A stretch of DNA of 64,000 nucleotides from Chrysomallon squamiferum (lineage: Eukaryota; Animalia; Mollusca): NCBI GenBank assembly GCA_012295275.1, contig CM022676.1:12214001-12278000 (forward strand), in the 5' to 3' direction. The position numbers and the translations under genes were made by a program. Positions 2,603 to 51,601 of this stretch are shown one piece after another; the stretch's first letter is position 1, and each line of letters starts with the position of its first letter. The notes under the pieces were generated by a model that saw only the letters and a list, made by a program, of their open reading frames with translations, searched no databases and had not been told where the DNA came from.

Positions 2603-5680
<3,078 letters not shown>

Positions 5681-13158: not shown

Positions 13159-13209
13159 ATGCACCTTTTCTTGTGTGCTATTCTCTTTACTGTTGCTTCA
13201 GGTGAGATT

Positions 13210-13296
<87 letters not shown>

Positions 13297-14378
13297 TTTT
13301 TTCTTTCAAAATAAGCTTTTAATTTTGTATAAAATAATGATTTGCAGTTTACTTTAATTATAATTTTCATATCTTTATGATAGTTGCATTCGTTAAAAAG
13401 AACAAAACAAAAATATATTGTTATAAAATCTCCGAAGTGATGAATTGTCGCAGTTTAGTTTAACTACACGTTAACAGGCTGGTGATCTGAACAAATATAA
13501 TCATCTTTTATTCTCCTGTAATCCAGTTAAAAGTTTTACATGTCAAACAGCGTCCGCCTGAAACACATATGAGGATCCCTCATCCGAAATTCCGAAATTC
13601 GAAACTTTTTCCCGAGCAGCAGAAATAACAATAACATCTTTTCTGAATATACAAATCGCATTTTATTTTATTTTTTTATTACCAAAAATATTATTTTAAA
13701 TATCCTGCAGACTATCTGGGTAAGATGTACATGAAAAATAAAGCAAATTCAAAATCAGACGTAGATTCCTTTTATTCCAAAATCCGAAATATTCCGAATT
13801 CCGAAACACTTCCGGTCCCAAACATTTCGGATAAAGGATTCTCAGCCTGTATCATACTGAACATATTAAATAGGCTGTTCTTTTTTTTGGTTATTCATCT
13901 CTGTGTTTAACATCTCATAACATTTAAAATATCATATTTCATTTTATAAAATACTGATTTTGTAAATCTATCGATAGAAAACAATTCGGCGTTATTTAAA
14001 TAAAAGAAAAACAGCTAAAACATTTTGGCGAATGTGATGACGTAGCAGCGAGCAGACGATCCTCTAACTTACTGTACTTTCTAATTTAGAAACAAACTGT
14101 TATGTAAAGCTGAGAGTAAAGATTTACACAGTGTAGCAGCGAGCAGACGATCCTCTAACTTACTGTACTTTCTAATTTAGAAACAAATTGTTATGTAAAG
14201 CTGAGAGTAAAGATTTACAGAGTGAAAATATTATTACATTTATTAAGAACAGTAACAAGAAGAACAAACAGAGATAAAAGACAACTATACTTCTATAATT
14301 CATTAATTTTCTTGGATATCTTTGCCAATGAAAAATTAAATATTATTAATAGTAGTAGTAATAGTAGTAGTAATAGTA

Positions 14379-14418
<40 letters not shown>

Positions 14419-15108
14419 GAACAATAACAACAACACTAACAACAACAACAATTGAAATAATAATAATAATAAATAAAAATAAAACTCCTATGGTTAGCGG
14501 TTCGGCATTTTAACTGAATGTAATTTTCTAAATTATTTCAGCTGATTATATTTTAACAAAATCGCCAGACGCAGTTACTATTGGATCATCGTTAACGCTG
14601 ACATGCAATACACGGAGAAAACAACCCGGAATAAAATGGACTCGGGGTGATTCTAGCTTCATTGTATCACAAGCAGTAGGTACAAGTTGTAATGGAAAAA
14701 TGCCATCAGAATACGACTTCAGCTGTTCAGAAGGAATGATATTCAATTTAACAATACCCAATATCCCGTTCACTGAAAATGGAATAAAATGGAAATGTCA
14801 GGGTGAATTTGAACAGGTTGAAAGCAATACTATAATTGTTACCATCGGTAGGTTTCACTCAGAAAGTATAGGTTTATCCACACAGAGAAATTAAAAGTGA
14901 TGCACTTTTCTTATTTGTTATTCTCGTTACTATTGCTTAAAGTGAGTTTATATATATAATATTTATTTTCACCTTTCATTAAGAATCATTTTCATGTTGT
15001 TGTTTTTTGGGTGTTTTTTTGTTGTTGTTGTAATTGTTGTCTTTCCCAAGAAGAATAACAACAAACAAAAAAGAAGAAAAAGGAAAAAAAGAAAAAAAAA
15101 GAAGAAGA

Positions 15109-15140
<32 letters not shown>

Positions 15141-17212
15141 GCGAGAAAAAAATAACACTATGTTATATCATCCCTGTCAGATCCTCTAATTTACCTTTTC
15201 TTCTTTTATAATTTAAACTTTAAACAAATGATTATGAAAAATTGAAAAAACTCCTGAGGTTGATGATTCGGCAACTCAAGTAAATATAATTGTCTCTATT
15301 ATTTCAGCTGATTATATCTTAACAAAATCGGCAGACACAGTTACGTTTGGATCATCGTTAACGCTGACATGCAATGCACACAGCAAAGTAGACGGAATAA
15401 CTTGGACTCGGGGTCCTACTAGCTTTCGAGTATCACAAGCATTAGGTACAAGCTGTAAAGGAAATATGCCATCAGAATACGACTTTGTATGTTCAGAAGG
15501 AATTATATACAACTTGACAATGCGCAATATCAGGTTCAGGGAAAATGGAATAAATTGGAAATGTCAGGGTCTGTTTGGAGGAGCTGAGAGCAATACTGTA
15601 ATTATAAAAGTTACTAGATTCGGTAGGTCTTACTCAAAATCAGTAGATATGCAGACACTTATATTTGTGTGCTAGAGAACGATATCCTCCTCATCTTTTT
15701 TACAGCAGTAATGTCCCATTGTTTGACAAAAGCGTCTGCATGTTTCTCCATCAACTTCGTGTTTTGTCCTGTGTTAGATAATTCCTCTGCAATACAAGTA
15801 CCTATCCTATCCTTTGGCTGTAGTTACACTATGTTTTTTCTTTTCATATCGTTCCCAGCTGAAGATGGGTAACGGTCTTCAGTTGACTTCTGTCATCTAA
15901 CCTGTCCAGTCACATTTGTAATCTTTTTACTGACATGTTTCTTTTTCGCTCTATCTAGATGATCTATAGAATATTTCCCTTCCTCTTTGTTTGTGCAGTT
16001 GACTGTTTTTTTCTCGCTTGCTTAGTTAGCGCCAAAGTTACCAGCAGTGAGTCACTGATACTCACAGAAGTTCTCAACCTCTCTCGAAGCACGTTATACG
16101 TTTTCCTAGTACATTTTGCCGTACGACAAAAAATGTTGTTGACATATCAATATACAACACTTTGAAGGTCATTTTTCTCTTTGATTTTCATTTCCCCCTA
16201 CATCTTTCTGTATATCAGCACCAGTGACCGACATAGTTTTCTGGTATCGCCAGTCTCTGGTTTTGTAGGTAACATTTAAAAATATGCACTCGAGCGCTGC
16301 TGTAAATTGATTAGCTCATACTAGTGTCGGTCATACCAATCTGTTCAGTATTCATGGAGCGAGGATAGTGTATCTTTAGTTTGCACTGACACGAAAATCT
16401 GTTCACAGTTAATTTACAGTCAGCTATTGTACTTTTGCATTTCTTTAGATGGCTTATAACATGGACGTGGCTATCATCTCAATCAAGCGTGCTCTCTAGG
16501 CTGATTTTCTTCATTATTTCTATTTTCTGCCTGGTTTATGGCAAACACGTACCCAAACGCCGTGTGTTCCATTCTACAGGAATTCTTCAATGAAGATGGA
16601 GCACATTCATTATAGTATTTTACTTGTATATAAATGAATTAGGTATTAAAATGTTGAATACAATTTATCATATTTAACTCATTTTTCTATTTGCAATATT
16701 ATTATCGAATAAAAGAAGCAGTTAAAGATATTGTAGAACTGTTTTCAAGAATAAAATTTTATGATTACGATTATTATTTTACATATTTCAGTTCCTGCTA
16801 ATGGCGGTAGCACACTACAACCTTCAGCTGTGTTTTGTCTTCTAATCATGTAAGAAATATTTTCATTGTCGTCTTTTTATCTAATCTTTTATTTATTGTT
16901 GAATTTAGTGTTCGTTTTAACTCGTTTGTACCTGTCTGTTTTACTATTATTGTTGTTATTTAATCTTTCTGTCTGTCTTTCTTTCTGTGTGTTTATTTAG
17001 TCATGTTTTATATGCTGAAGTTAGTATTATTTGTCGTGTATGAAGAAAATAAATATTTAATTTTCTGCCTCTCTTTCTTAAATTTTGAATATATTTACTG
17101 TCCTGTGTTTCTACACTTATCTTTCTTTCAGAGTTTCAGTTCGTTCTCTTTTATTTTTATTTTATCTTTCTTCAGGTTTATCACCACTTCAGTTGTGAAC
17201 GTTTTGAAGTAG
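13159..17212 (+). CDS. Type-B two-Ig-domain protein with GPI-signal-like tail (gene B1)
   Basis: Exons 13159-13201 (MHLFLCAILFTVAS), 14542-14847 (Ig1: LTLTC..GIKW..C..C..FNLTI..ENG.KWKC), 15308-15622 (Ig2), 16792-16849 (VPANGGSTLQPSAVFCLLI), 17176-17212 (MFITTSVVNVLK*). Open throughout with GT-AG junctions. Confidence 0.88.
13566..13849 (-). mobile_element. Non-autonomous TcMar/Tigger-like MITE (Tigger4/Zombi-like ends)
   Basis: The right end on the minus strand reads TA-caggctgagaatcctttatccgaaatgtttgggaccggaagtgtttcgga. A degenerate left TIR tgaggatccctcatccgaaa lies near 13570. The resemblance to Tigger4 ends is from memory. Confidence 0.6.
14042..14223. repeat. About 92-bp intronic tandem duplication (2 copies)
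   Basis: gtagcagcgagcagacgatcctctaacttactgtac...gagagtaaagatttaca starts at about 14042 and again at about 14134. Confidence 0.85.
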
Positions 17213-18173
17213 ATCTACATACTCCTCGCAGATAGAAAAACACCGAGAAGCATCAAACACAGAAAACAAACTAAATTTTACTGTTCTTTCTTCTTTGTGT
17301 TTGTGTTCGTTATTATTGTTATCATCAACATCATCATCATTATTGTTATTATTATTATTGTTAAAAATATTATTATTTTCATTAGTATTATGATTATAAC
17401 CATCTCATTTATTTATTTATTTATTTATCACTTCTATCTTTTTAATGTTGTTTTTCTTTTTTCTTTTGTTTAACAAATTTGAAAAACTAAAAAGCCATTA
17501 TACTTGAATCGACTATAAATTAAATATATTCTTTCTTTCTTTCTTATTTTCTTTTTTTTTTTTTTTCTCCTATTTAGTGCATGGGAAGAAATAGCACTAA
17601 AATTGTTCTGTTTCAGATCATTTAAAATATGACTGAACTGTTAAAATATTAAAACAAAAAATTCTCAGTTGCTCCACTAAAACATCTCTTGCTGATTTCA
17701 GTCTGGTCAACTGTCTTCATGACATCACACAAGAGCAGTCCACTCAGTCTGAAATAGGTTAACATTGCGATTGCGTGTAATTTTTGTCTTGACCATTCAT
17801 TCATTCATTCATTCATATTCAATTTTTGATAAAACAGTTTCTTTTCCATATATATAGTTTCATTCTGCTGGACTCTCCTTAATTGTCTGTAAGAAGGAGG
17901 AAAATCTGTTAGGAATCCTTTCTTATGAATTTCATCCTGAACTGAACGGAGACAAACTGTTGCTCCTAACTGCTATTCACAGAGCCCTCGAAACAGTTTG
18001 TTAGACATCCGGGTTATAGTGTTAAAACAAAAACGAAATTATTTATAATCGTTATTACAAAGTAAGAGTACTTAGCCACGTTCAGATTCTAGTGTAACAT
18101 GGCAATTCATGATAACAATGTTTACATAAATCATCTTACAACGGTTATCCCTTAAACTAAAGATGTACAAGAA

Positions 18174-18232: not shown

Positions 18233-18264
18233 TAAATAAAAATAAGAAAAGTAGATTCACTTAC

Positions 18265-19055
18265 GACTAGTTTTCACGGTAAGTGTATTACTTTTATCAT
18301 TACTTAATTTTGTTTTACACACGTAGTCGACGTCCCCGTATTCACTGTAATTATTAACAGTAAGATAGTAGCTTCTAACGTCGGCGTCTCTGCTGTTGGT
18401 CCCGTCACCGTAGGCAGCGTTGAAATTTGATGACATGTGCTTAGATACGACGCATTGTCTTGAAGCTGCATAAATAAACTGAGTCAATAGTCGCCCATGT
18501 AAAGACCTATCTTGTCCTTAAAGTTAGCCGAGCCGTTGACCGTACAGGTGAAAACAAATATCCTGTGACGTAACAGGTTAACTGCTGTTAAATAATTTAG
18601 ACTGTGTGTTTAAATTTAATTTAACAAATGAACACAATATGATCTTTAAAGAAAGTCGGTCAATAACAATCAAAATTATGTAACAACAACATTACATAAT
18701 CACATCAACATATACAGTCATATTAGTTGATGTAATTTGGGTTGATTTTTAGATTAGAGTATTTACATTCTTTAGTATGTATCTATATACATTATAATCT
18801 TATAAAATAACAGCACCTAAATGGCCTAACAAAAAGAAAACGAAGAAAAATTAATAAAGACGTATATTATAATGATAAACAAAGGAGAGTAAAACAATTA
18901 TGGAATCAACAAGAGATACAATGGTAAGCCATTTGAAACTATAGTGACGACACTGAAAAAGATAAATTTACTGACTAAACAAATATCGCTGAAAAAAAAA
19001 AAAAAAAGGGAAGCAGATTTAACAGTAGAATATCCTTCCCAAACAGCGAATCCAT
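18265..19055 (-). pseudogene. Truncated pseudogene copy of type-A gene A3 (signal exon and first Ig exon)
   Basis: 18584-18265 is an inverted copy of 35249-35596 with a deletion of about 27 nt, CGA>TGA (gactattgactc) and a 1-nt deletion (ggcaactgc>gacaatgc). The signal-exon homolog near 18975-19055 is disrupted by a poly-T run. Downstream exons are missing. Confidence 0.85.
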
Positions 19056-19485: not shown

Positions 19486-20137
19486 CGAAATCTCTGTACC
19501 TAGTCGACAGATTTATGAAATACATTAATTTTGAAAACCATTAATTCTGTTGGACACAGCCATCCTTCTCATCGCTTTCTTTAATCAGATTCCATTGTTT
19601 TCATAACTGGATATACGTCAGTGATGTTTGCTAATTAATTAATAAATTAATTAATTTATTTCATTTATTTATTTATTTATTTATTTAGTTCATTTATTTT
19701 ATTGTTGTATTTGTATAGATTTATTTTATTCTATTTTATTATTATTTATTATCATTTCAGAAATAATATTAATGGATTTTATTTATTTATTTTATTTTAT
19801 TTTATTTTATTTTATTTATTTATTTATTTATTTATTTTGTCTCTTACAGTTATGGATTTTTATGATTTTAGGAGTTCACTATATATTTATATGAATAAAT
19901 ATTGCATTCACTTTTTGCATTCAATTTATCTGAACACTAAAAGTATCTTCTTTTATTAACTGTCCTTTTTTTATATAACAGCATTTACTACTTTTTTCAT
20001 TTCTACTTGATACGTTTCAGGAAATCAGCAAATATTTAAGGACTGAATGAAAGTACAAATTGATTGACAAAAACATTTTGGTTTGAATATGAGAAGTCTG
20101 TTTCTTGTGTTTTCTTTCCTTTTAGGTTTACTACACC

Positions 20138-20915
20138 ATGGAATCAAAAGTGATGCAGCTTTTCTTGTATGTTAGTCTCTTCACTGTTGCTTCAAGTGAG
20201 TTTATTTAAAATGTTTTATTTCAAAATTACTTTTTAATTTTGTATACATTCATTTCTAAGTTATAATTTTTTTTAATGTTTTTGTGGTTCTTGTAATTTT
20301 AAGAAAAAATATAAATAAAAAACAATAAATAAATAAATTAATAAATTACTATAGAAATAAATAAAAGAAAACAAAATTAAAATTAAAATTAAATTGAATA
20401 AAACGAAAGAAAAAGGAAAATTTCTAAAGTAATAAAATGTAAAAATTTGATTTAAATACACATTAGGTACTGATGATCAAAACATATATAGACATCTTTT
20501 ATTCACCTGTAATTCAGTTAAAAGTTTTTCATTGTAAATCAACGCCACCCTTGAACACATTTAATCAATTGTTTTTTGTTTAGTGTACAGTTATTAAACT
20601 ATTATAAATGTCACATTACATTTTAAGAAATACTGAACATGCAAATAAATACTGATGAAGACAAACTGGTGCATCAATTAAATAAAAACATAAAAAACAA
20701 TTAAAAAGAAAGGTGGAGACATAGAAGCGAACGCATAAAAGTTTACAATCCTCTAATGTAGAATATTTTTAATTCAAAATTTACACAAATGAAAATACAA
20801 AGATAATAGAGAGTAATGATATCCAAAGTGAAAATATTATTAAACTTATTAAGAAAGGTAACAACAAGAACAAGACTGTAATCTTGTTCGATATATTTGC
20901 TGGCACAAAATTTAA

Positions 20916-21005
<90 letters not shown>

Positions 21006-22254
21006 ATTCCTAAGGTTAGTATTGGCGTTTTAAGTGAATGAATTATCTGAATTATTTCAGCTGATTATCTCTTAACAAAATCGAGAGACAGAGTTATTGT
21101 TGGATCATCGGTAACGCTTACATGTAATACACACAACAAAGTACCCGGAATATCTTGGTCTCGTAATCGTTCTAATATCCTTTTAAAACAAGGATCAGGT
21201 ACAACTTGTACTGGAGATCTGCCACCACAGTACCACTACACATGTTCAGAAGGAATTATATTCAATTTAACAATACCCTTTATTAAGTCCGATGAAAATG
21301 GGAAAAAATGGAAATGTCAAAGTGAATCTGGAGGAGATGAGAGCAATACTATAATTATTACCATCGGTAGGTCTTACTCAGAAGGTTTATCTACATTATG
21401 GAATTAAATATAGTAATGCATCTTTTGTTATGTATCATTCTCTTCAGTATTGTTTCAAGTTAATTTACATAAAAAATGTTTTATTTCAAAACATTATTTT
21501 AATTTAGTATATTATATTTATTTTCAATTTTTATTAAGAATAATTTTATATGTTTTCTTGATTCTGATATTTCCTATAAGAAAGAGAGAAAGAGAAAAAA
21601 AAAAAAAAAAAGAAGAAAAGAAGAAAAAAAGGAAGGATATTGCATAAAACATGTAAAGTGATAAAATGTCGAACTTTAGTTTAAATACACATGACAAGGC
21701 AGGTGATTGGTACAAATACAGTCATATTTCATTCGCCTGTAATTCAGTTAAAAGCTTTGCACGTAAAACAACGGCAGCCTTGAATACGTGTTATATTGAA
21801 ACTATTCAATAAGTTGTTCTTTGTTCAGTGAAAAGTGCTGCTCAGGAAACTTGCTTTTCATCTTATTCTTCTCCCGAAATTTCATGTAGCATAAACCATT
21901 ATAAATGTCATATTACATTTTATAAAATATTGATTTTAAATCGGCAATATTTAAATAAAAGAAAATTAATTAAAACAATTAAAACAGTTTGTTAAATATG
22001 ACAACGTAGAAGTGGGCACATAGTGACACAATTCTCTAACAATATTTTTAAAGTAAAATTTAAACAAATAATTACGTAAAGTTGAGATTTACGTAAAGTA
22101 AAGAGTGAATTTATTATTACACTTATTAAGAACAATAACAACAAGAACAAAGGGTAAGAAAAAAGACAAATATAATTTGATAATTCATTAATTTTCTTGA
22201 TATATTTGAAATACAAAAGGTAGGAAAATAAAAAGAAAAAAGAAGGAAATGGTA

Positions 22255-22289
<35 letters not shown>

Positions 22290-23588
22290 TGATGATGATG
22301 ATGATGATGATATTAGTAATAATAGTAATAATAATGACAAAATTTATAATTTTGGTGATTTGGCATTACAAATAAATGTAATTCTCTGAATTATTTCAGC
22401 TGATTATCTCTTAACAAAATCGAGAGACACGGTTATTGTTGGATCATCGTTAACGCTTGTATGTAATACACGCAAAAAAACATCGGGAATAGTCTGGACT
22501 CGTGATCATTCTAATATCCTTTTATCACTAGGATCAGGTACAAGTTGTGTCGGAGATCTGCTACCAAAATACGACTACAAATGTTCAGACGGAATTACAT
22601 ACACGTTAACAATACACTCTATTCCATTCAGGGAAAATGGAATAAAATGGAAATGTCAGGATCGGTTTGGAGAAGTCGAGAGTAATACGATAACTGTAAA
22701 TGTTGCTGGATTCGGTAGGTCTTACTCAAAATCAATAGATATACAGACACTTATATTTGTGTGCTAGAGAACGATATCCTCCTCATCTTTTTTACACCAG
22801 TAATGTCCCATTGTTTGACGAAAGCGTCCGCATGTTTCTCCATCATCTTCGTGTTTTGTCCTGTGTTAGATAATTCCTCTGCAATACAAATACCTATCCT
22901 ATCCTTTGGCTGTAGTTTCTCTTCATATCATTTCAATATGAAGATGCATAAAGGTCCCCAGTTGAGTTCTGTAATCTAACCTGTTCAGTCACATTTGATC
23001 TTTGTTTTCTAGTTTACTGACATGTTTCGTTTTCGCTGTCTCCAGGTGATCTTTAGCATATTCCTTTCCGACTTTGTTTGTGTTCTTGCTTGTTTAGTTA
23101 CCACTATCACTGATATACAAACGAGGTGTAAACTTCTCTGCTAAACAAAATGTTGTTGACATGTATTGGTATGTCACTTTCTAGAGACTATTTTCTCTTT
23201 TATTTTCATTTCCCCCTGCATGTTTTGGTATATTTGTAAAAAAAGACTGTAACGTAGGCGAAACGAAAATGACCGATATAGTTTCAGGAATCCTGAAGCC
23301 TCTGGTTTCTGAGGTATGGTTTAAAAATATGCAGTCGATGCTGATGTAAACAGGTTAGATGATATTGTGTCTCCTTTTCCCGTGGGCCTCTTTTTATTTT
23401 GATTTTATTGGATATATTTGGTGTAGAGATTTTCTGTTTACAATGGATCGTATATGTTTTCGAACAAAAGAAGCAGCTAAACATATCGTAAAACTGTTTG
23501 CAAAAATGAAACTTAAAAGAATATTTATGAGAGTGATTATTATTATTATTATTACTATTACTATTATTATTATTATTATTATTATTAT

Positions 23589-23620
<32 letters not shown>

Positions 23621-24497
23621 TTTGTGTTATTATTATATCACTGCTAACATATTCACTATTTCGATTCATTAAAAGATTGTTAGACATTGATTTTTGTTCG
23701 TATAAAAAAAGAATTAGGTAATAAAATTGTGAATACCATTTATCGCATTTAACTATTTTCAGTGACTGCCATTTTTCTCTTTCCAATGGCTGGTATTTAT
23801 TTATTTATTTATTTTCATTTTTTTTTTTTTTTTCAATAAAAGAAACAGCTAATCATACCGTAGAACTGTCTACAAGAATTAAAGACAAAAGTAAATTTCA
23901 TTGTTATTATCATTATCATTATCATCATCATCATTAACATCATCATCATTATTTGAATACTAGCTTTCAGTGGAAAGAAACATATGGTATTTACATACGA
24001 TTAATTAAAAGAGTGTTAGAATTTTCACGATTTTCCATTTTTCAGAAGCTGCAAGAAGCGGTAGCACATCAGAGTCTTCAGCTGTGTTTTGTCTTATAAC
24101 CATGTAAGAAACATTTTAATTGTCGTCTTTTTATGGATTCTTTTATTTATTGTTGAGTTTAATGTTCGCTTTAACTCATATGTATCTGTCTGTTTTACTA
24201 TTATTATTGCTTAATCTTTCTGTCTGTTTTATTATTATTATTGTTTAATCTTTCTGTCTGTCTTTCTTTCTGTGTGTTTATTTAGTCATGTTTTATATGC
24301 TGAAGTTAATATTATTTGTCGTGTATGAAGAAAACAAACATTTAATTTTCTGCCTCTTTTTCTCGAATTTTGAATGTATTTACTGTCCTGTGTTTCTACA
24401 CTTATCTTTCTTTCAGAGTTTCAGTTCGTTCTCTTTTATTTATATTTTATCTTTCTTCAGGTTTATCACCACTTCAGTTATGAACGTTTTGAAGTAG
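20138..24497 (+). CDS. Type-B two-Ig-domain protein with GPI-signal-like tail (gene B2)
   Basis: Exons 20138-20195 (MESKVMQLFLYVSLFTVAS), 21061-21366 (Ig1), 22400-22714 (Ig2), 24046-24103 (EAARSGSTSESSAVFCLIT), 24461-24497 (MFITTSVMNVLK*). Downstream coding exon sizes equal those of B1 (306/315/58/37). Confidence 0.88.
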
Positions 24498-25751
24498 ATC
24501 TACATACTCCTCGCAGATAGAAAAACACCGAGAAGCATCAAACACAGAAAACAAACTAAATGTTACTGTTCTTCCTTCTTTGTGTTTGTGTTCGTTATTA
24601 TTATCATCAACATTATCATCATTATTGTTATAATAATAATAATAATAATCATTATAATAATAATAATAATAATAATTGTTATTAACATCATCTGTTTATT
24701 AGTTTATTTATTTATTTATATATCACTTCTTTCTTTTTAATGTTGTTTTTTTCCTTTTTTGTTTAACAAATAAAATAAATACAAATAATAAAAACAACAG
24801 CAAAAACATACTTCCATAGACTATAAAATAAAGAGCAATATATTTTTATTCCTTTCTTTGGTATTTTCTTTTTTTCTTTCTCTCCCTATTTAGTGCATGG
24901 GAAGAAATAGCACTAAAATTGTTCTGTTTCAGATCATTTAAAATATGACTGAACTGTTAAAATATTAAAACAAAAAAATTCTCAGTTGCTCCACTAAAAC
25001 ATCTCTTGCTGATTTAAGTCTGGTCAACTCTCTTCATGACATCACACGAGAGCAGTACACTCAGTCTGAAATAGGTTAACACTGCGACTGCGTGTAATTT
25101 TTGTCTTGACCATTCATTCATTCATATGCAATTTCTTTTCCATATATTCTAGTTTCAATCTGCTGGACTCTCCTTAATTGTCTGTAAGTTCTAATGTTAC
25201 AAAAAAATGATAAGTAAAAGGAGGAAAATCGGTTAGGAATCCTTTCTTATGAATTTCATCCTGAACTGAACGGAGACAAACTGTTGCTCCTAAATGCTAT
25301 TCACAGAGCCCTCGAAACAGTTTGTTAGACATCCGGGTTATAGTGTTAAAACAAAAACGAAATTATTTATAATCGTTATTACAAAGTAAGAGTACTTAGC
25401 CACGTTCACAGACTAGTGTAACATGGCAATTCATGATAGCAATGTTTGTTTTGATCGCACATAACAAAGTAAAAATAAAATAAAATAATGAACAAGAACA
25501 ACAACAGTAATATACTGTGTCCACTTTCATGGAATTAATACATTCTGTCCAAACTGATGGAACCAGTGACTTTCTTTTTTGTAAAAAGATGTATAAAAAT
25601 AAATAAATAAATAAATAAATCCAAATAAATAAAACAAATAAAAATAAAAATAAAAGAAATATAAAAATATAAAATAATTTTAAAAAATGTTACTCTTCCA
25701 CGATTAGGCTTTGGGTGCAAGTACCTTGTGGAATTATGTTTGAACAAAACC

Positions 25752-25823
<72 letters not shown>

Positions 25824-27399
25824 CAACAATAGCTGTACAAGTAGCTGCAGTAGTAGTAGTTATTGTACTAGTATTAATAGTAATAGTAGTAGTAGTAGTA
25901 CTGGTTATAGTAATGCAAGCTAAAGTTTGAAAATTGTCATTCATAACTCGATCGGCTCTAAAACACTTGGATATCAATTTCAAACATTCAGGGATCCGTA
26001 TGCAAACCTCGCTCCTCCACTGTGTTGGAACAGTGATCAGTAACAACAACAACAACAACGATAGCAATAATAATAACAATAGTAACAAAAAATTATGATA
26101 TTGATGATGATGAAAATAAATAAATAAATAAATAAATAAAAATTCATCACTTAAGGAACTCATGAATATAAAATAATTTAGAAACAAAATAATTTAAAAT
26201 TAAAAAAGTTAAAAAAAAAAAAAAAAAAAAAATAAGATGAAGAAAAACAAAATAAACACTAAAATAAAATAAAATAAACATGACTTAATTTCAGTTATGA
26301 TAATATTGTTAATTTGTTTAAACAAACTAAAAGATCAGATTAAAATTAATGCATACATAGATTTCAGCGTTTCTTATACTGATTTTTGGAAGATTTAATA
26401 GGGTTTCGTCGCGTCATCAATTAGTCTACTTCCAACACAGATCTATAAATACATTTCTTGTAGCATACTTTATATCAACAAACATCTTTTACATCTGCCT
26501 TCAGAATGAAGCCGAAAAGAAGGAAGAAAAATAAAGTAAGTAAATAAATAAATACAAACCTAAAAACGAGAGAAAGAAAATAATTACTAATAAAATAAAT
26601 AATATTAATTTACAAACATGATAAGTAGAATATCGAGGAAATATCAATTTTAATAAAATGACTCAGTCAGAAACACATCAATGGACACAAAGATCATTTA
26701 AAACTTTTAAAGAAACTGAAAAAATAAATATAATAAGAAGAAATAAGTAAATAAAATTAAGAAAAAATATATTAAAAAGTCAAAGGAAAAATAAACTGAG
26801 AAGGATGTATTATCAACAAAAATTCAGTGGACTTTTACTATTTGATATCCGCCATTTTACAAGCGCTTGATGTTGATATTGAAGAAGTGGATCATTATTC
26901 TCAGGCAGTGCACCAGCTTAATGACTATTTTTTGCAATCACTCTACAAAGATAGCAGACAACTGTGGGTAGACACAGATACATACAAACACAGATATACG
27001 TTCAAATAGATAGATACATATAATTACGTGAGCGTGTTTCTGTATATATCTTGTTCAAAGCAACTTTTTAGTGTTTAACAACTGGTTTGGATTTTAAGAA
27101 ACCATTGAAATCAGTTTTCTATCTACTAATAACAGATACATTGAATCTATTATTTACGAGATCAGTGAGTTGAGAAATAACAGTGCAATTTAGGATTGCG
27201 GGATAAAAGAAATAACTGGTTACTGTTTCAATTTTAACTTGCTCGGCACAGCCTGGCACCTATTGCATTCTCATCCTCTCAGGATTCAATATTTAATTGT
27301 TATGTTGTTGTAGTTTTTTGTTGTTTTTTGTTTGTTGTTGTTTTCTTACGTTTTATTTTTCGTAGCTATGGCTTTCTGGTCCAGTTTCCTTCGTTCAAT

Positions 27400-27660
27400 A
27401 CTTTCAGGAACTGTTTTAAATCACCTGGACGTATATCCAGCAGGATCAGCAAACGTTCCATACTAGCTGATCACTGTCGCAGACTACGTTTGCACTGGTG
27501 CTTTCCAGGAGATAATTCTTCTATCACACTTCTTGCTCATCTCGTGCACACGTCATACGGGAGACTCGGCAATTCTTTATGGAGTTAACGTAAATGAGTT
27601 GGCCATTATACAAAGCTGATGTTACAGGCGAACAGTGCACTGGAGATATCCTGGAACCAA
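27400..27660 (-). mobile_element. Possible degenerate 3' fragment of an RTE-like LINE
   Basis: GC-richer patch in the spacer. The minus strand has eroded motifs resembling the C-terminus of RTE ORF2 (..LYG.L.., ..LLW.P..). No intact ORF. Confidence 0.25.
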
Positions 27661-28024
27661 CTACATTTAAAAATAAAAATAAAAATAATAAAACATCAAC
27701 TTATTTCAACAGTCACTTTCATTTCCACAACCACTGTTATAGCCCAGATGTCTAAGAAACTGCTTCCGGGGCTGTATGAATAGCATTTAGGATCAACAGT
27801 TTGTCTCATTCTGTTCAGGATGAAATTCATAAGAAAGTATTCCTAACGTATTTTCACAGTTTAGACAAAGAATAAAACTGTCTCAATTATTTTTATTATT
27901 TATTTTTTAATTGTAACTTTAAAAAAAAAGAAAAACAAAAAAATTAAAACAGAAAAACAATACAAGTTTGCTTTCTGTATTTGATGCTTCTCAGTGTTTT
28001 TCTATCTGCGAGGAGTATCTAGAT

Positions 28025-28867
28025 CTACTTCAAAACGTTCATAACTGAAGTGGTGATAAACCTGAAGAAAGATAAAATATGAATAAAAGAGAACGAACTG
28101 AAACTCTGAAAGAATTATAGGAGTGGAAGCACAGAACAATAAATATATTCAAAATTCGAGAAAGAGAGGCAGAAAGTTAAATATTTATTTTGTTAAAACA
28201 ATAAATAATACTAACTCCAGCACTGAAAACATAACTAAATTAACACAGAGAAAGAAAGACAGACAGATAGATTAAATAACAACAATAATAGTAAAACAGA
28301 CAGATACACACGAATTAAAACGAACACTAAACTCAACAATAAATAAAAGAATCCATAAAAAGACGACAATTAAAATGTTTCTTACATGGTTATAAGACAA
28401 AACACAGCTGAAGACTCTGATGTGCTACCGCTTCTTGCAGCTTCTGAAAAATGGAAAATCGTGAAAATTCTAACACTCTTTTAATTAATCGTATGTAAAT
28501 ACCATATGTTTCTTTCCACTGAAAGCTAGTATTCAAATAATGATGATGATGTTAATGATGATGATGATAATGATAATGATAATAACAATGAAATTTACTT
28601 TTGTCTTTAATTCTTGTAGACAGTTCTACGGTATGATTAGCTGTTTCTTTTATTGAAAATAAAAAAAAAATGAAAATAAATAAATAAATAAATACCAGCC
28701 ATTGGAAAGAGAAAAATGGCAGTCACTGAAAATAGTTAAATGCGATAAATGGTATTCACAATTTTATTACCTAATTCTTTTTTTATACGAACAAAAATCA
28801 ATGTCTAACAATCTTTTAATGAATCGAAATAGTGAATATGTTAGCAGTGATATAATAATAACACAAA

Positions 28868-28899
<32 letters not shown>

Positions 28900-31044
28900 A
28901 TAATAATAATAATAATAATAATAATAGTAATAGTAATAATAATAATAATAATCACTCTCATAAATATTCTTTTAAGTTTCATTTTTGCAAACAGTTTTAC
29001 GATATGTTTAGCTGCTTCTTTTGTTCGAAAACATATACGATCCATTGTAAACAGAAAATCTCTACACCAAATATATCCAATAAAATCAAAATAAAAAGAG
29101 GCCCACGGGAAAAGGAGACACAATATCATCTAACCTGTTTACATCAGCATCGACTGCATATTTTTAAACCATACCTCAGAAACCAGAGGCTTCAGGATTC
29201 CTGAAACTATATCGGTCATTTTCGTTTCGCCTACGTTACAGTCTTTTTTTACAAATATACCAAAACATGCAGGGGGAAATGAAAATAAAAGAGAAAATAG
29301 TCTCTAGAAAGTGACATACCAATACATGTCAACAACATTTTGTTTAGCAGAGAAGTTTACACCTGAAATTTGCAACATATAGAAAATTCTAACACTCTTA
29401 TAATCAGTCGAAATAGTAAATATCATGTTTCTTTCCACTAAATGTTAGCATTCAAATAATAATAATAAAATTAATAATAATAATAATAATACATTTTTTT
29501 CTTTCATTCTTGCAAACAGTTCCACAGTACGTATAGCTCCGCTTTTATTCCAAAACGTATATCATCCATTGTAAAGAGAAAAGTTAGTTAAATGTGATAA
29601 ACTGCGTTCAACATTTTACTTCCTAATTCATTTATAAAGAATAAACTACTACTATTAATGCGCTCCATTTTCAGTGAAGAATTCCCATAGAATGGAACAC
29701 AGGGCAATCAATTTGAAGAATTTCAGGTACATGTTTGCCAAAAACAATACAGAAAATATTAATAATGAAGAAAATCAGCCTAGAGAGAAAGCTGGATTGA
29801 GGTGCAGGTATTCAACGACAACTACAACCACCTCGTAAGCCAAAGAAGAACAAGCAGATTTCTGCCTCAGTGCAAACTAACGATACACTGTTCTCGCTCC
29901 ATGAGTATGGAACACCAAGATGAGTATGACCGAAACAAATCTCGATACAAAGACCTGAATGAGAAACACCAGAATCCAAATAAAGAGACACTGTATCATC
30001 TGACCTATTTACAGCAACACTCGAGTGGATATTTTCAAAGGTTACCTGGGAAACCAGAGGCTTCACGATACCTTAAAACATATTTGTCATCTTCGTTTTG
30101 GCTGGGTTATGCTTTTCTGTAATAATATACAGAATGCTGCAGGAGGAAATGAAAATGAAACAGAAAAATGACGCTATAAAGTGACATATCAATACATGTC
30201 AACAACATTCAAAGAACATTTGGAACCTGCCTGAAGAGAGAAGTTTACAGCTCGTTTGCACACCAGTAACAGTAGTAACTAAACAAACAAGAGCACAAAC
30301 AAAGTCAGAACTGAATATGCAAAAGATCACCTACAGAGAGCGAAAGAGAAACATTTCAGTAGAATAGAGAAAAAAAGATTACAAATGTGACTGAACAGGT
30401 CAACTGAGGACCGCTACCCATCTTCAGCTGGAAACGATATGAAGAGAAACAACCTAGAGTAACTACAGCCAAAGGATAGGATAGGTATTTGTATTGCAGA
30501 GGAATTATCTAACACAGGACAAAACACGAAGATGATGTAGAAACATGCAGACGCTTTCGTCAAACAATGGGACATTACTGCTGCAAAAAAAGATGAGGAT
30601 ATCGTTCTCTAACACGCAAATATAATATCTGTATATCTATTGTTTCTGACTAAGACCTACCGAAGCCAATAACGTTTAGACTTATGGTATTGCTCTGAAT
30701 TCCTCCCCATTCACACTGACAAATCCATTTTCTTCCATTTTCCCTGCTCGAGATAGATCGTATTGTTATCTTGAATATAATTCCTTCTGAACATGCAAAG
30801 ACGTATTGTGGTGGCAGAACTCCAGTACAACTTGTACCTGATCCTTGTGATACATGGATGTTAGTAAGGTCACGAGTCCAAAATATTCCGTCTACTTTGC
30901 AGTATGTATTACATGTCAGCGTTACCGATGATCCAACAATAACTGTGTCTCTCGATTTTGTTAAGAGATAATCAGCTGAAATAATTCAGAATTACATTTA
31001 TTTATAACCGAAATCACTAACCTTAGAAATTTTGTTTTTATTTA

Positions 31045-31091
<47 letters not shown>

Positions 31092-32830
31092 TTAAATTTC
31101 GTGTCAGCAAATATATCGAACAAGATTACAGAATTATAAAATTAAAGGTGTGTTCTTGTTGTTACTGTTCTTAATAAGTTTAATAATATTTTCACTTTGG
31201 ATATCATTACTCTCTATTATCTTTGTATTTTCATTTGTGTAAATTTTTAATTAAAAATATTCTACAATAGAGGATTGTAAACCTTTATGCGTTCGCTTCT
31301 ATGTCTCCACCTTTCTTTTTAATTGTTTTTTATTTTTATTTAATTAATGCACCAGTTTGTCTTCATCAGTATTTATTTGCATGTTCAGTATTTCTTAAAA
31401 TGTAATGTGACATTTATAATAGTTTAATAACTGTACACTAAACAAAAAACAATTGATTAAATGTGTTCAAGGGTGGTGTTGATTTACAATGAAAATCTTT
31501 TAACTGAATTACAGGTGAATAAAAGATGTCTATATATGTTTTGATCATCAGTACCTAATGTGTATTTAAATCAAATTTTTACATTTTATTACTTTAGAAA
31601 TTTTCCTTTGTTTTTTGTTTTATTCAATTTAATTTTAATTTTGTTTTCTTTTATTAATTTCTTTAATAATTTATTAATTTATTTATTTATTGTTTTTTTA
31701 TTTAGAAATGAATATATATAATTTGAAATAAAACATTTTAAATAAACTCACTTGAAGATATAATCAACTGAAATAATTCAGAGAATTACATTTACTTAAA
31801 ACGCTAAGTCATTAACATCAGGAATTTTTATTTTATTTTTATTTGCCAAAATATTTTCATTATTTTAATTGTTTTTCTTATATTTAGTTAATATTGAATT
31901 TGTCACTGTCAATAATTTTACAAAATCAGTATTTTATAAAATGTAAAATGACATTTATAATGGTTACGCTACATGAGATATGAGGAGAAGAATAGGATGA
32001 AAAGCAAGTTTTCTGAGCAGCACTTTTCACTGAACAAAGAACAACTTATTGAATAGTTTCAATATAACACGTATTCAAGGCTGCCGTTGTTTTACGTGCA
32101 AAACTTTTAACTGAATTACAGGCGAATGAAATATGACTGTATTTGTACCAATCACCTGCCTTGTAATGTGTATTTAAACTAAATTTCAACATTTTATTCC
32201 TTTACAGATTTTATACAATATCTTATTTTCTTCTTCTTTCCTTCTGTTTTTTCTTTTTCCTTTTTTGTTCTCTTTCTCTTTTCCTTATAGGAAATACAAC
32301 AATCACAAAATTAAAGATATGTTTTGAAATTAAACATTTAAAAAAATATTAACTTGAAGCAATAGTGAAGAGTATAACACATAACAAAAGGTGCATTACT
32401 AAATGTCTAACCACAACGTAGATAAAACTATACTTTCTGAGTAAGACCTACCGATGGTAATAATTATAGTATTGCTCTGATCTCCTCCAGATTCACTTTG
32501 ACATTTCCATTTTCTCCCATTTTCATCGAGCTTAATAAAGCGTATTGTTAAATTGAATATACTTCCTTCTGAACATGTGTAGTGGTATAGTGGTGGCAGT
32601 TCTCCACTACAAGTTGTACCTGATCCTTGTTTTAAAAGGATTTTAGAACGATCACGAAACCAAGCTATTCCAGGTACTTTGCTGTGTGTATTACATGTAA
32701 GCGTTAACGTATATCCAATAGTAACTGGGTCTTCCGATTTTGTTAAGAAATAATCAGCTGAAATTAGATTTATTTAAAATGCCAAATCACTAACATCAGG
32801 AATTTTATTTTTATTTATTTATTTATTTAT

Positions 32831-33486: not shown

Positions 33487-33631
33487 AAAAATATAAACAA
33501 AATAATAACTTAGAAATAAATATATAGAAAATTAAAAAGTTATTTTGAAATAAAACATTTAAAATAAACTCACTTGAAGCAACAGTGAAGAGACTAACAT
33601 ACAAGAAAAGCTGCATCACTTTTAATCCCAT
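28025..33631 (-). CDS. Type-B two-Ig-domain protein with GPI-signal-like tail (gene B3; rearranged, mosaic)
   Basis: Minus-strand exons 33631-33574 (MGLKVMQLFLYVSLFTVAS), 32757-32452 (Ig1), 30975-30661 (Ig2), 28443-28386, 28061-28025 (stop). Both Ig exons translate open. A 16-nt remnant exon at 31767-31752 must be skipped. Confidence 0.82.
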
Positions 33632-34813: not shown

Positions 34814-37198
34814 ATGGATTCGCTATTTGGGAAGGATATTCTTCTGTTAATTCTGCTTGCTTTTCTCTTCAGCCATATTTGTTTAGGTCAGTAAATTCAC
34901 GTTTTTCAGTCTGTAGTTTCAACATTGTTCAGAAATGGCTTACCATTCTACATCTTGTTGATTCCATATTTATTAATTTTTCTTCCTCGTCATTTTGTTA
35001 GGCTATTTAAGTAACTATTATTTTATAAGATTGTATATATATCTTTAAATTTTATATTTTTATTCAATTATAAACGGAAGAATTGTAAATAAAAACATCA
35101 ACCCAAATTACTATATTTTTTACTGTTGCTGTTATTAATCGTTATTTTTACATAATTTTGATAGTTATCGACCTACTTTCTTTAACCTTCCTACTCTTAT
35201 GTATTTTTTAAAATTAAATTTAAATGGCCACTTCTGATTATTTAGCAGCCGTTAACCTGGTCCTTTCCGGTTCGTCTGTCCATGCAGTACGTCACAGGGT
35301 ATTTGTTTTCACCTGTACGGTCAACGGCTCGGCTAACCTTAAGGACAAGATAGGTCTTTACATGGGCGACTATCGACTCAGTTTATTTATGCAGCGTCAA
35401 GGCAACTGCGTCGTATCTAAGCACATCTCATCAAATTTCAACGCTGCCTGCGGTGACGGGACCAACAGCAGAGACGCCGACGTTAGAAGCTACTATCTTA
35501 CTGTTAATAATTACAGTGAATACGGGGACGTCGACTACGTGTGTAAAACAAAATTAAGTAATGATAAAAGTAACACACTTACCGTGAAAACTAGTCGTAA
35601 GTGACATTACTACAAATACTACTAAATTAATCATTATTATTGTTGTTGTTGTTGTTACTGTCATTATTAGTGTTATTGGTATTACCATTATAATTATTAC
35701 TGTCATTATTTTTGCCATTAGACATAATCATTATTATTATTTTATTTATTTATTTTTGAAATCATTTTGACATTGGTTAGGGTTGGGGTATATTATCTTC
35801 TTACACTTCATTCATTTTGCTTTCAATGTTGTTTTTTTGATATGTATTTGTTTTTTCAGTAGCTGTTATAGAAATACACGGTCTGTCGAGTCATGCATCA
35901 CTGGACGAGATGTATGTATTTACCTGTATTGTTAGAAATGCTGTCGACCTTCAGGAGGTAATCAGCATTTACAGAGAATCTCCTGTTCCAACCAGAATTG
36001 TTTCACTTGAGCAGAATATGACGGACTGCAAGGACAAAGACACAACTGAAGGATACACGATGTACTGTCTGAGTGAGACAAAACAGTCAACATCGGCTAC
36101 AAAGTCGTACATTGTTATCATCAACCAACTCGCAGTGGAAGATTTTTCAAACTGGACTTGTCATTTAGAGCTGACTGATGTGACTAGTGAATCTCTTCTA
36201 CTCAACAGACGTAAGTATTTATCACATAAATCAATCAATAAAAAAGTAAATAAATAAATAAGTAAATTAAATAAAATAAAATAAATAAACAAATAAGTCA
36301 AAAAATCATTGTTACTGTTATTATTATACATTTTTTTTTTATTGTTTTAATTTCATGCTTATTGAGGAATACATTAAAATATCTTCTTCACTCTTATAGG
36401 AAATAAAACTTTACTAATTACATAGAGAAAAACAATTAAACTGTCACCAGTTTTTCACATTTTATTTCCTGAAGGTTATACAGTAGCTGGATCATCAAAA
36501 ATGTCTTTGTCTTGGATTTTGTTATTAAGTAAGATATTTTATCAAACATTTTTACATATCATTTACTATTAAATTACTTTATATATACATATGTATCATT
36601 TACTATTAAATTACTTTATCTACACATACATATCATTTACTATTAAATTACTTTATCTACACATACATATCATTTACTATTAAATTACTTTATATACACA
36701 TACATATCATTTACTATTAAATTACTTTATATACACATATGTATCATTTACTATTAAATTACTTTATCTACACATACATATCATTTACTATTAAATTACT
36801 TTATCTACACATACATATCATTTACTATTAAATTACTTTATATACACATACATATCATTTACTATTAAATTACTTCATATATACTTACATATAAATTACT
36901 TTATATATACTTACACATCAAACTAAATCATTTACTTTTGTTTTTGTTCATTGTTCTCTCGTTATTATTTTCTGTATATCTACATAATGATGATGATATT
37001 AATTTCTTATTGTTGGATTTAAATCAAACAGTAATTAGCTGCATTAATTTTGAATTTCATTTTCCCACTTACTATACTGTCCTCCAAAACTATTTGTGTT
37101 ATTGTTGTTGTTATTTTATTACCCGGTTTTATTAAATAATTTTTATTGTTGCAAATGTTCTGTTGCCAGTCATATTTGTCTTATCTTTCCAGATTTAA
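34814..37198 (+). CDS. Type-A two-Ig-like-domain protein with hydrophobic tail (gene A3)
   Basis: Exons 34814-34886 (MDSLFGKDILLLILLAFLFSHICL), 35249-35596 (FVFTC..NC..ACGDGT..SYYLTV..DYVC), 35860/35863-36210 (YVFTC..DC..YC..SYIVII..DFSNWTC), 36475-36528 (YTVAGSSKMSLSWILLL), last exon probably 37170-37198 (IIFVLSFQI*; alternative acceptor at 37193). Confidence 0.82.
36555..36910. repeat. 37-bp intronic minisatellite, about 9 copies
   Basis: Unit atatcatttactattaaattactttat(c/a)tacacatac repeats every 37 bp. Confidence 0.9.
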
Positions 37199-37807: not shown

Positions 37808-47534
<9,727 letters not shown>

Positions 47535-50784: not shown

Positions 50785-51601
50785 ATGTATCAAATTGCTA
50801 TGGATTTACAACTGAAATGTTTCTTCATCCTTGCTATAGTAATCATATTACTGACCAAGACTGAAGGTAAGATATGAATAATACTACTACTACTACTAAT
50901 ATTAATAATAATGTTCTTAAGCAGGGTAAATTGTACAAATAATAACAATTTTATAAACTGTACATATATTGTGAACAATATACATTATACATGAATTTTA
51001 TTAATTATACAATTATTGTTTAACATGAATTTCATAAACTGTACAAATAATGTGAACACTATAATTATACATAAATTTTATAAACTCTACAGATAATCTG
51101 TAAAATATAATTTATACACATATTTGATTAAAAGTACATATAACGTGAACAGTATAAATTATACATGAATTTATATTAATTGTACAAATAGTGTGAACAG
51201 TATAAACTATATATGGATTCCAGTGCTAACAGAAAATGTTTCATGATGTATAAAAGAATTCAGTTTGTTTTTAAACAGGTCAGACAGCATTCTTGATGAT
51301 TACGGGCCCAGCTACAGTACCTCACCTGTGAACTTCACCTGTGGGCATGTCGGTGGTCAACTAGAAGACCATGTTGTTATAAATCGTCCTGATAGACACA
51401 CAGTTATCGAATGTGACAATTCATCTGATTTCACCAAGTGTATAATTTTGATTTCTGGCTATTTACCTGTTGCATCGACTCCTAGCACATACACAATTAG
51501 TATCAACAGATTCAGAAAGGAGACTGACAGTGGGATGTGGGAATGTGGAGACATGGATCCTAGGTCAGTTCGAGGCACAGTATATGTAGAGGGAAAATTA
51601 G
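50785..51601 (+). CDS. Type-C single Ig-like-domain gene (C1); possibly frameshifted, 3' exons unresolved
   Basis: Signal exon 50785-50866 (MYQIAMDLQLKCFFILAIVIILLTKTE). Ig exon 51279/51284-51601 (VNFTC..IECDNS..KC..STYTISI..DSGMWEC) is homologous to 58798-59118. Confidence 0.65.

What the first reader, a model, noticed from the sequence alone, without database searches (positions are those of the whole stretch)
21061..32757. Ig exons diverge almost only by amino-acid changes (21 of 22 differing codons)
Seen by manual codon comparison: B2-Ig1 (21061-21366) and B3-Ig1 (32757-32452) are both 306 nt with no indels. They differ at 22 codons; 21 change the residue and one (CCC/CCT) is silent. Their signal exons are identical after the third codon and their tail-exon peptides are identical. 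Across the six type-B domains the residue before the conserved Trp is K, T, S, V, A, F (all different), while Cys, Trp and the TKS, ENG and SNT motifs are invariant. Inference: diversifying selection on a ligand-binding surface.
Basis: partly seen in the sequence, partly recalled or inferred. Interest (0 to 1): 0.78.

Follow-up and report, generated by a model that had tools for sequence, protein, structure and literature searches.

The report
Fast-evolving mollusc two-Ig surface proteins
Three neighbouring genes of a probable mollusc encode small proteins with two immunoglobulin domains, predicted to be lipid-anchored on the cell surface, whose copies have likely swapped DNA segments and whose exposed residues likely change faster than neutral drift allows, a pattern already familiar from immune and self-recognition receptors.

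Summary
The counts are right: the two 306-nt exons differ at 22 codons, 21 amino-acid-changing. The pair alone is weak evidence. It has 27 base changes (3.5 silent steps), dN/dS 2.1-2.6, Fisher p 0.08-0.17, and is the most extreme of 15 pairs. It is also a mosaic: 11 of the 27 changes lie in 60 nt that B2-Ig1 shares with another copy. The exons belong to three intact genes (signal peptide, two V-like Ig domains, predicted GPI tail); B2 splicing is seen in RNA. Named relatives are molluscan. Across all six domains average dN/dS is about 1, and site models put 24-41% of codons at dN/dS about 3 (LR 14-18). This survives recombination partitioning and leave-one-out tests, but falls to p 0.01-0.3 when silent rate may co-vary with amino-acid rate. 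Fast sites avoid the core but do not cluster on one face. Verdict: diversifying selection on exposed residues is likely (about 0.6); a single ligand-binding surface is not supported; the ligand is unknown. New member of a known kind. The scan had no note on this DNA; unchecked notes report paired Ig receptors 0.4 and 1 Mb away.

The parts
13159..17213 (+). Gene B1: signal exon CDS 13159-13201, Ig1 14542-14847, Ig2 15308-15622, tail exons 16792-16849 and 17176-17213; 252 aa
   Evidence: Open frame with AG/GT ends; an RNA contig in X9 carries 30 letters matching B1 tail exon 1 at 29 places (table 5c)
19585..19616 (+). 3' end of the B2 5'-untranslated exon (start not defined)
   Evidence: Loose end of an X9 RNA contig before 20131 matches it, followed by the start of the signal exon
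20126..20195 (+). B2 signal-peptide exon (ATG at 20138)
   Evidence: RNA joint 20195>21061, GT..AG, run X9; hydrophobic N-terminus
21061..21366 (+). B2 Ig1 exon; chimeric: first about 54-60 nt shared with the B3-Ig2 unit, the rest closest to B3-Ig1
   Evidence: RNA joints on both sides in X9; Pfam ig above cut-off
21398..21458 (+). Decayed copy of the signal exon behind Ig1 (also behind B1-Ig1 at about 14899-14941 and B3-Ig1 at about 32405-32353)
   Evidence: Sequence likeness; skipped by the RNA joint 21365>22399
22400..22714 (+). B2 Ig2 exon
   Evidence: RNA joints 21365>22399 (X9) and 22713>24045 (X7)
23124..24161 (+). 1038-bp block nearly identical to its inverted copy (from 29364 down to about 28330); contains tail exon 1
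   Evidence: 2 differences
24046..24498 (+). B2 tail exons 24046-24103 and 24461-24498 (stop): spacer of small residues, hydrophobic end, no cytoplasmic tail = predicted GPI signal; protein 257 aa
   Evidence: RNA joint 24103>24461 in X7; translation and hydropathy
28024..28443 (-). B3 tail exons 28443-28386 and 28061-28024, identical to those of B2
30661..30975 (-). B3 Ig2 exon; its upstream intron is 98% identical to B2 intron 1 in clean blocks
31752..31767 (-). 16-nt remnant: start of an Ig exon fused to the end of a signal exon, with AG and GT intact; trace of a deleted third Ig unit
32452..32757 (-). B3 Ig1 exon
   Evidence: Pfam ig above cut-off
33574..33631 (-). B3 signal exon CDS; the AG acceptor that B2 uses in front of it is missing; protein 257 aa if spliced like B2 (inferred)

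Best explanation
The two exons are the first Ig domains of two of three tandem and inverted paralogous genes of a probable mollusc, each encoding a signal peptide, two V-like Ig domains and a predicted GPI-anchor tail; the copies have likely exchanged segments by gene conversion, and selection likely favours new residues at roughly a quarter to a third of positions, nearly all exposed, while keeping the fold. Shown: gene layout, B2 splicing, mosaic ancestry, constraint on the core, average dN/dS near 1. Inferred: the two-domain gene arose by duplication of a signal-exon plus Ig-exon unit (decayed signal exons follow each Ig1); the protein sits on the outer membrane without its own signalling tail; the pressure comes from a changing binding partner, most likely microbial (pathogen or symbiont) surface molecules (my odds, given selection: about 55% microbial, 30% self or gamete recognition, 15% other). 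Conversion would keep exons alike and reshuffle variants; selection would keep the amino-acid differences.
For: M2a beats M1a by LR 14.4-17.3 and M8 beats M7/M8a by 14.5-18.2 under 4 of 4 frequency models. With three segment trees LR is 15.0-18.1 in 4 of 4 fits, with 24-41% of codons at 2.7-3.4. With silent rate varying independently LR is 11.1-15.5 in 4 of 4 fits. All 6 leave-one-out sets give LR 10.9-20.1 and the four B1/B2 domains alone 18.7. Nulls: LR of 14 or more in 0 of 53 three-tree and 2 of 53 heavy-mosaic simulations; LR of 15 or more in 0 of 31 double-substitution and 1 of 31 mild-rate simulations. With 29 structural and 72 surface codons fixed, silent rates are equal (0.91 v 0.89; 0.83 v 0.81) while dN/dS is 0.26-0.30 v 1.36-1.68. 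Only 1 of the pair's 21 changes is at a core position (p 0.03; 0.004 with structural Gly and motif residues). Variants in other samples change the residue at 12 codons and are silent at 2; 5 of the 12 fall on the 13 top-ranked sites (p 0.008). Recombination: PHI p 0.0005-0.0015. RNA splicing of B2. Ig V-like fold.
Against: With one gamma rate shared by silent and replacement changes LR falls to 2.4, 3.8, 4.3, 6.1 (p 0.30, 0.15, 0.12, 0.048); with free silent and replacement rates per class LR is 3.7-6.7 (p 0.009-0.054); such a neutral model gives LR of 15 or more in 32% of 31 simulations. Surface dN/dS above 1 is significant under MG (p 0.018) but not GY (p 0.17). Only 8 of 37 invariant codons vary silently (0.22) against 0.33 expected under M2a, at its 5th percentile, so silent rates may be depressed. 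Introns of B1 versus B2/B3 units differ by 0.48-0.66, about twice exon dS (0.19-0.35) and close to the rate of the fast class. All five nulls other than the shared-rate one still exceed the nominal 5% level (11-19%). The variant ratio does not differ from neutral (p 0.22); 6 of the 12 variants are residues found in a paralog, and the 6 new ones show no enrichment (2 of 6, p 0.17). No single face is enriched. Only six domains; the codon code is my own, with naive empirical Bayes.
Confidence: 0.6

Rival explanations
1. Relaxed constraint plus a depressed or uneven silent rate. The fold is kept, surface residues drift at the neutral rate, and dN/dS looks above 1 because silent sites in these exons are slowed (splicing signals or base composition in a very AT-rich gene, or patchy conversion).
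For: Shared-rate neutral models fit about as well as M2a (lnL -1261.0 v -1263.2 on one tree; -1214.5 v -1214.3 on three trees). Whole-domain dN/dS is 0.96-1.25. Exon dS is about half of intron divergence in old pairs; few silent changes at invariant codons. The pair's dN (0.11) lies inside the range of its flanking introns (0.065-0.18 in clean blocks). Another Ig paralog pair in the window has dN/dS 0.79. Ignoring silent-rate variation is a known source of false positives (PMC7403620, abstract).
Against: The fitted neutral model needs 89-92% of codons free of constraint, with slow codons explained as mutation cold spots, yet the slow codons are the Ig core (core v surface p 0.0002-0.0015) and three Cys are invariant across 26 aligned domains. 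Silent rate is the same in core and surface codons. Independent silent-rate variation is estimated as absent in both three-tree alternative fits. Intron distances at 35-44% mismatch are inflated by misalignment.
Confidence: 0.3
2. B3 is a decaying copy; the pair's amino-acid differences are neutral changes on the B3 branch plus residues imported by conversion.
For: B3 lacks the AG acceptor that B2 uses before the signal exon and carries a 16-nt frame-shifting remnant with intact splice ends; its Ig1 branch is 2-3 times longer than that of B2-Ig1; 11 of 27 differences lie in the 60 nt with another ancestry. The mirrored type-A copy next to B2 is broken.
Against: All five B3 coding exons are open with AG/GT ends; the changes avoid the core; the signal persists without B3 (LR 18.7). 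It would explain the pair but not the family.
Confidence: 0.15
3. Selection is real, but the partner is the animal's own: paralogs or alleles bind like with like (tissue self-recognition, cell wiring, or sperm-egg contact) rather than microbes. This shares the selection claim of the best explanation and differs in the ligand.
For: Two Ig domains plus a GPI anchor is the Dpr layout (PMC10863630, passages); point changes in a V-like first domain create new homophilic specificities in Hydractinia Alr2 (PMC8282982, abstract). BC loop + FG loop + front sheet together are weakly enriched (p 0.03, one of five sets, chosen after seeing the ranks).
Against: In Alr2 selection is on one side of domain 1 (PMC8282982, abstract); here top sites lie at both poles of the domain. 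There is no signalling tail.
Confidence: 0.18

Closest known systems
Drosophila Dpr proteins (Dpr/DIP, IgLON-like; PMC10863630, passages read)
   Same: Signal peptide, two Ig domains, GPI anchor, no signalling tail, multigene family
   Different: No specific sequence tie: DIP chains are among many Ig hits of similar score and no Dpr is among the 60 shown. The domains here carry a second Cys pair and evolve at dN/dS near 1 with conversion; no neuronal role was tested.
Hydractinia Alr family (PMC9546547, passages; PMC8282982, abstract)
   Same: Clustered invertebrate IgSF genes, one domain per exon, V-like first domain, duplicates and pseudogenes, positive selection by point change
   Different: Alr proteins have a transmembrane helix, an Fn3-like region and cytoplasmic tails; selection sits on one side of domain 1. 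None of that is seen here.
Snail VIgL proteins (FREP, CREP, GREP) and hyperdiverse IgSF-bearing receptors of Biomphalaria (PMC10875847 and PMC3342036, passages read)
   Same: Gastropod Ig domains in expanded clusters; excess replacement diversity in extracellular parts (BSUD.12903); gene conversion named as a diversifier
   Different: [quoted passage not shown]
Unnamed molluscan Ig domains with an added Cys pair (Haliotis XP_071078629, Gigantopelta XP_041347270 and XP_041372833, Dreissena, Mytilus, Tegillarca)
   Same: Same domain type: three Cys invariant in 26 of 26 aligned domains, best E 3e-31
   Different: The 10 relatives whose sequences were read (9 molluscan-type) are mostly longer, with further Ig domains, Fn3 or a transmembrane end; names are automatic ('uncharacterized', 'nephrin-like'), no function
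Vertebrate GPI-linked CEACAMs and CD48/CD58 (recalled, not tested)
   Same: Short GPI-linked Ig proteins in clusters shaped by conversion and pathogen-driven selection (recalled)
   Different: Analogy only; a mouse coronavirus-receptor domain and a CEACAM5 domain appear at Z 11.5 and 10.9 among many tied Ig folds

Membership tests
Immunoglobulin superfamily, V-like domain | B-strand Cys, C-strand Trp, F-strand Cys and an Ig profile match | tested here: met
   C21, W32, C85 invariant; Pfam PF00047 above cut-off in 4 of 6 domains
Immunoglobulin superfamily, V-like domain | Beta-sandwich with extra C'/C'' strands | tested here: met
   Model pLDDT 87; best matches antibody and TCR V domains, Z 12.3, rmsd 2.3, 96 aligned; Pfam V-set itself stays below cut-off
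GPI-anchored protein | Signal peptide, small omega residue, spacer, hydrophobic C-terminus without cytoplasmic tail | tested here: met
   By inspection and hydropathy in 3 of 3 genes: 19-residue mean 1.9-2.2 at the very end, no Tyr in the last 35 residues; criteria from PMC10863630 (passage). No dedicated predictor was available.
GPI-anchored protein | Release from the cell surface by PI-PLC | not testable with these tools
   Needs expression in cells
FREP/CREP/GREP (VIgL) | Lectin domain (fibrinogen, C-type lectin, galectin) behind one or two Ig domains | tested here: not met
   RNA joins Ig2 to two short tail exons and a stop; proteins of 252-257 aa. The fibrinogen exons at 4.3-5.7 kb lie upstream, behind a PAN exon.
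Dpr/DIP | Two Ig domains plus GPI anchor | tested here: met
   Layout as predicted
Dpr/DIP | Sequence orthology to Dpr or DIP | tested here: inconclusive
   DIP-alpha E 2.5e-8, tied with Robo, TCR and antibody domains; no tree built
Dpr/DIP | Binding between family members through domain 1 | not testable with these tools
   Needs a binding assay
Hydractinia Alr | Transmembrane helix and cytoplasmic tail behind an Fn3-like region | tested here: not met
   Stop codon directly behind the hydrophobic stretch
Genes under diversifying selection | Site class with dN/dS above 1 after recombination is modelled | tested here: met
   LR 15-18 with three segment trees
Genes under diversifying selection | The same after site-to-site silent-rate variation is modelled | tested here: inconclusive
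   p 0.0004-0.004 (independent rates); p 0.009-0.054 (free classes); p 0.048-0.30 (shared gamma)
Genes under diversifying selection | Selected sites cluster on one binding face | tested here: inconclusive
   No single set enriched (p 0.05-0.86); faces assigned from strand pattern, not from coordinates; Ig1 and Ig2 pooled

The most novel reading that the evidence does not exclude
An undescribed family of germ-line variable, GPI-tethered two-Ig receptors in a gastropod, diversified by segment exchange between domains plus positive selection and polymorphic within the species, that recognises microbes or symbionts as tail-less decoys or co-receptors for neighbouring activating and inhibitory Ig receptors on the same chromosome.
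Probability: 0.15. Interest if true: 0.68.

Novelty: new member of a known kind. Interest (0 to 1): 0.38.

Why it matters
Molluscan variable Ig proteins are known mostly as secreted lectin fusions. A small, expressed, predicted GPI-anchored family with average dN/dS near 1, mosaic exons and amino-acid polymorphism is a compact candidate for a recognition receptor, with ranked sites (domain positions 31, 28, 75, 60, 50, 8, 25) ready for swap experiments. The evolutionary pattern itself is common in immune gene clusters, so surprise is moderate. The case also shows how a '21 of 22' codon count overstates the evidence.

Tried and rejected
Whole genome: none held, so the family could not be counted; RNA and DNA contigs with loose ends show further paralogs outside the window. 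Word-index protein searches with the six-domain alignment found nothing (longer: 0 of 7992 candidates; near: 0 of 502); the full HMMER scan found 107. The protein atlas gave no answer. Homodimer prediction of B2-Ig1: no answer, score 0.01, alignment not used; it bears neither way. B3 expression: neither RNA run (X7, X9) covered B3-specific exon sequence at 94% likeness; contigs show presence only, so this is not used. The joint 30975>33574 fits the B2 transcript better (1 v 4 differences) and the 'goes back 306' joint reflects the 30 identical bases at the start of Ig1 and Ig2; both rejected as exon skipping or circles. Two variant rows were dropped before the 12:2 count: 21230 (explained by B3 contigs laid at 88%) and 21244 (Cys to Tyr, one contig in one run); two tail-exon rows were outside the count; only 40 of 83 and 40 of 55 rows were shown, and the five B3-Ig2 variant codons come from one run (X5) and may be a close paralog. 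Many intron variants equal a paralog's base, so an exon-versus-intron polymorphism test was not possible. A longest-run conversion test found no significant fragment in 15 of 15 pairs; PHI and segment trees did find mosaicism. Introns as neutral yardstick: rejected as decisive, since values run from 0.013 to 0.31 in neighbouring 150-bp bins. Rfam: 0 matches in 12800-36500. codeml and HyPhy are not installed; models were coded by hand. Literature: five searches listed no paper on this family; a sixth on the snail family of two named relatives gave none either; only listings were seen, and non-open journals are not covered. No supplements were opened.


Full report
Observation. The two exons are 306 nt, indel-free, and differ at 22 codons, 21 of them amino-acid-changing. 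The six-domain statements and the signal and tail statements are also correct. But codons are the wrong unit. There are 27 base changes; pathway counting gives 3.5 silent and 23.5 replacement steps, dN/dS 2.1-2.6, Fisher p 0.08-0.17. Neutral evolution would give only 5-6 silent codons; the chance of one or none is 0.008-0.022, and this is the most extreme of 15 pairs.

What the genes are. Six related Ig exons form three genes: B1 (13159-17213, +), B2 (20138-24498, +) and B3 (33631-28024, -). Each reads through as signal peptide, Ig1, Ig2 and a short tail, 252-257 aa, with AG/GT ends. RNA contigs from two runs show the four coding joints of B2, two in each run, and an upstream untranslated exon; one contig carries a B1-like tail exon. 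The tail is a run of small residues, then a hydrophobic stretch ending at the stop, with no tyrosine: a GPI signal by the criteria given in PMC10863630 (passages); this is a prediction. The domain folds as a V-like Ig sandwich (pLDDT 87; V domains first) and carries a second Cys pair (49, 61). A profile scan found 107 relatives at E up to 0.001; 8 of the 10 looked up carry names, all from molluscs (Haliotis, Gigantopelta, Dreissena, Mytilus, Tegillarca). So the host is probably a mollusc, likely a gastropod (inference).

History. A decayed signal exon follows each Ig1, so the two-domain gene likely grew by duplicating a signal-plus-Ig unit; B3 holds a 16-nt scar of a third unit. B2 and B3 with their type-A neighbours form an inverted duplication. 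The copies are mosaics: PHI p 0.0005-0.0015 in 4 of 4 settings; best breakpoints near nt 54 and 225. B2 intron 1 differs from the intron before B3-Ig2 at 6 of 344 sites but from the intron before B3-Ig1 at 48 of 266, and B2-Ig1 differs from B3-Ig2 at one base in its first 54. Eleven of the pair's 27 differences lie in the first 60 nt. Segment by segment the exon is about as divergent as the adjoining clean intron blocks (11 of 60 v 18%; 16 of 243 v 6.5%). Tail exon 1 is identical because 1038 bp around it are nearly identical.

Selection tests (own implementation of GY and MG codon models; six domains, 101 codons). Average dN/dS is 0.96-1.25. M2a and M8 beat their nulls by LR 14-18, also with three segment trees, in all six leave-one-out sets and without B3, and with independent silent-rate variation (LR 11-15). 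Simulated nulls rarely reach this: 0 of 53 and 2 of 53 at LR 14, 0 of 31 and 1 of 31 at LR 15, though they pass the nominal 5% line in 11-19% of runs. Against this, when silent and replacement rates share one gamma, LR is 2.4-6.1; with free classes 3.7-6.7; and the fitted shared-rate neutral model reaches LR 15 in 32% of 31 simulations. PMC7403620 (abstract) reports that about half of positive results vanish once such variation is modelled. What tips the balance: slow codons are the structural core, and silent rates are equal in 29 structural and 72 surface codons while dN/dS is 0.26-0.30 against 1.36-1.68 (p 0.17 under GY, 0.018 under MG). The structural set was drawn from canonical Ig positions with the alignment in view, so it is not fully blind. 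What remains open: silent change at invariant codons is low (8 of 37) and exon dS is about half of old intron distances, so a generally slowed silent rate could inflate every ratio.

Where the fast sites lie. Top sites are 31, 28, 75, 60, 77, 50, 25, 76, 24, 36, 8, 72, 88. None is in the core set, and 1 of the pair's 21 changes is. They fall in the BC loop and C strand, the EF and CC' loops at the other pole, and beside the second Cys pair. Mean posterior: front sheet 0.31-0.35, back sheet 0.29-0.30, top loops 0.41-0.43, bottom loops 0.48, core 0.11; no single set is enriched (p 0.05-0.86); BC + FG + front gives p 0.03, chosen after the fact. Faces were assigned from the strand pattern.

Variation among samples. 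Among the rows shown (40 of 83, 40 of 55), the four B2/B3 Ig exons carry 12 amino-acid-changing and 2 silent variant codons after two rows were dropped. Counted as 13:2 bases this fits neutrality (p 0.22) and rejects ordinary purifying selection at dN/dS 0.2 (p 0.0001). One RNA contig of B2-Ig1 has four replacements and no silent change, each also seen in a DNA run. The pair's one silent difference (codon 28) itself appears in the B2 state on a B3 contig of X5. Six of the 12 variants are residues of a paralog, as conversion predicts; close paralogs outside the window cannot be excluded as a source.

Mechanism. Most likely a tethered recognition protein with no signalling tail whose exposed residues are pushed to change by a shifting partner, while conversion reshuffles segments between domains (confidence 0.6 for selection; ligand unknown, microbial most likely). 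Rivals: surface drift with slowed silent sites (0.3); B3 decay, which could explain the pair but not the family (0.15); self or gamete recognition as the driver (0.18, overlapping with the best reading).

Comparison. It works like other fast-evolving invertebrate Ig clusters: Hydractinia Alr (PMC9546547 passages, PMC8282982 abstract) and hyperdiverse Biomphalaria receptors (PMC10875847, PMC13712769, PMC3342036, passages). It is not a FREP (no lectin domain) and not an Alr (no transmembrane helix or tail); it has the Dpr layout without shown orthology. Six literature searches listed no description of this family (listings only). Searches were method and comparison searches. Earlier scan notes hold nothing on this DNA; two unchecked notes place paired inhibitory and activating Ig receptors 385 kb and 994 kb beyond the window, a lead for a wider Ig cluster that I did not test.

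Verdict. Real observation, overstated statistic, probably correct inference of selection, unsupported single surface. New member of a known kind; interest 0.38.

Noticed in passing
window 31767-31752 (-): 16-nt fused remnant (Ig-exon start plus signal-exon end) with intact AG and GT inside B3 intron 2; if spliced in, it would shift the frame and stop after Ig1, giving a secreted one-domain form or a degraded message
   Followed up: partly
window 13515, 20506, 21736 (+); 33314, 32122, 31515 (-): A conserved block of about 70 nt sits in 6 introns of the unit, far from splice sites, among otherwise divergent AT-rich DNA; no Rfam match; possible regulatory element or conversion anchor
   Followed up: partly
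window 18260-18600 (-) and 35252-35601 (+): Mirrored type-A Ig-like exons sharing a head-to-head layout with B2 and B3; the copy at 18 kb has a 1-nt deletion and a Cys-to-Tyr change (likely pseudogene) yet is about 95% identical over the exon while flanks differ by 18-30%
   Followed up: partly
window 58797-59105 (+) and 63866-63558 (-): Another inverted pair of Ig-like exons, dN/dS 0.79 (Sd 14.7, Nd 34.3); further Ig-like exons at 8006-7518 (-), 35841-36254 (+), 51247-51657 (+); of these only 35841 has a weak Pfam Ig hit
   Followed up: partly
window 2591-5677 (+): PAN-domain exon followed by fibrinogen-domain exons: a PAN-FReD gene
   Followed up: no
window about 41300-44000 (-): Exons of the complex I 49-kDa subunit gene (Pfam PF00346) in the middle of the Ig cluster
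   Followed up: no
window 38628-40150 and 36553-36939: Tandem repeats of about 79 bp and 74 bp
   Followed up: no
window 23124-24161 and its inverted copy from 29364: Near-identical 1-kb block including microsatellites: very recent conversion between inverted arms, or an assembly effect; not resolved
   Followed up: partly
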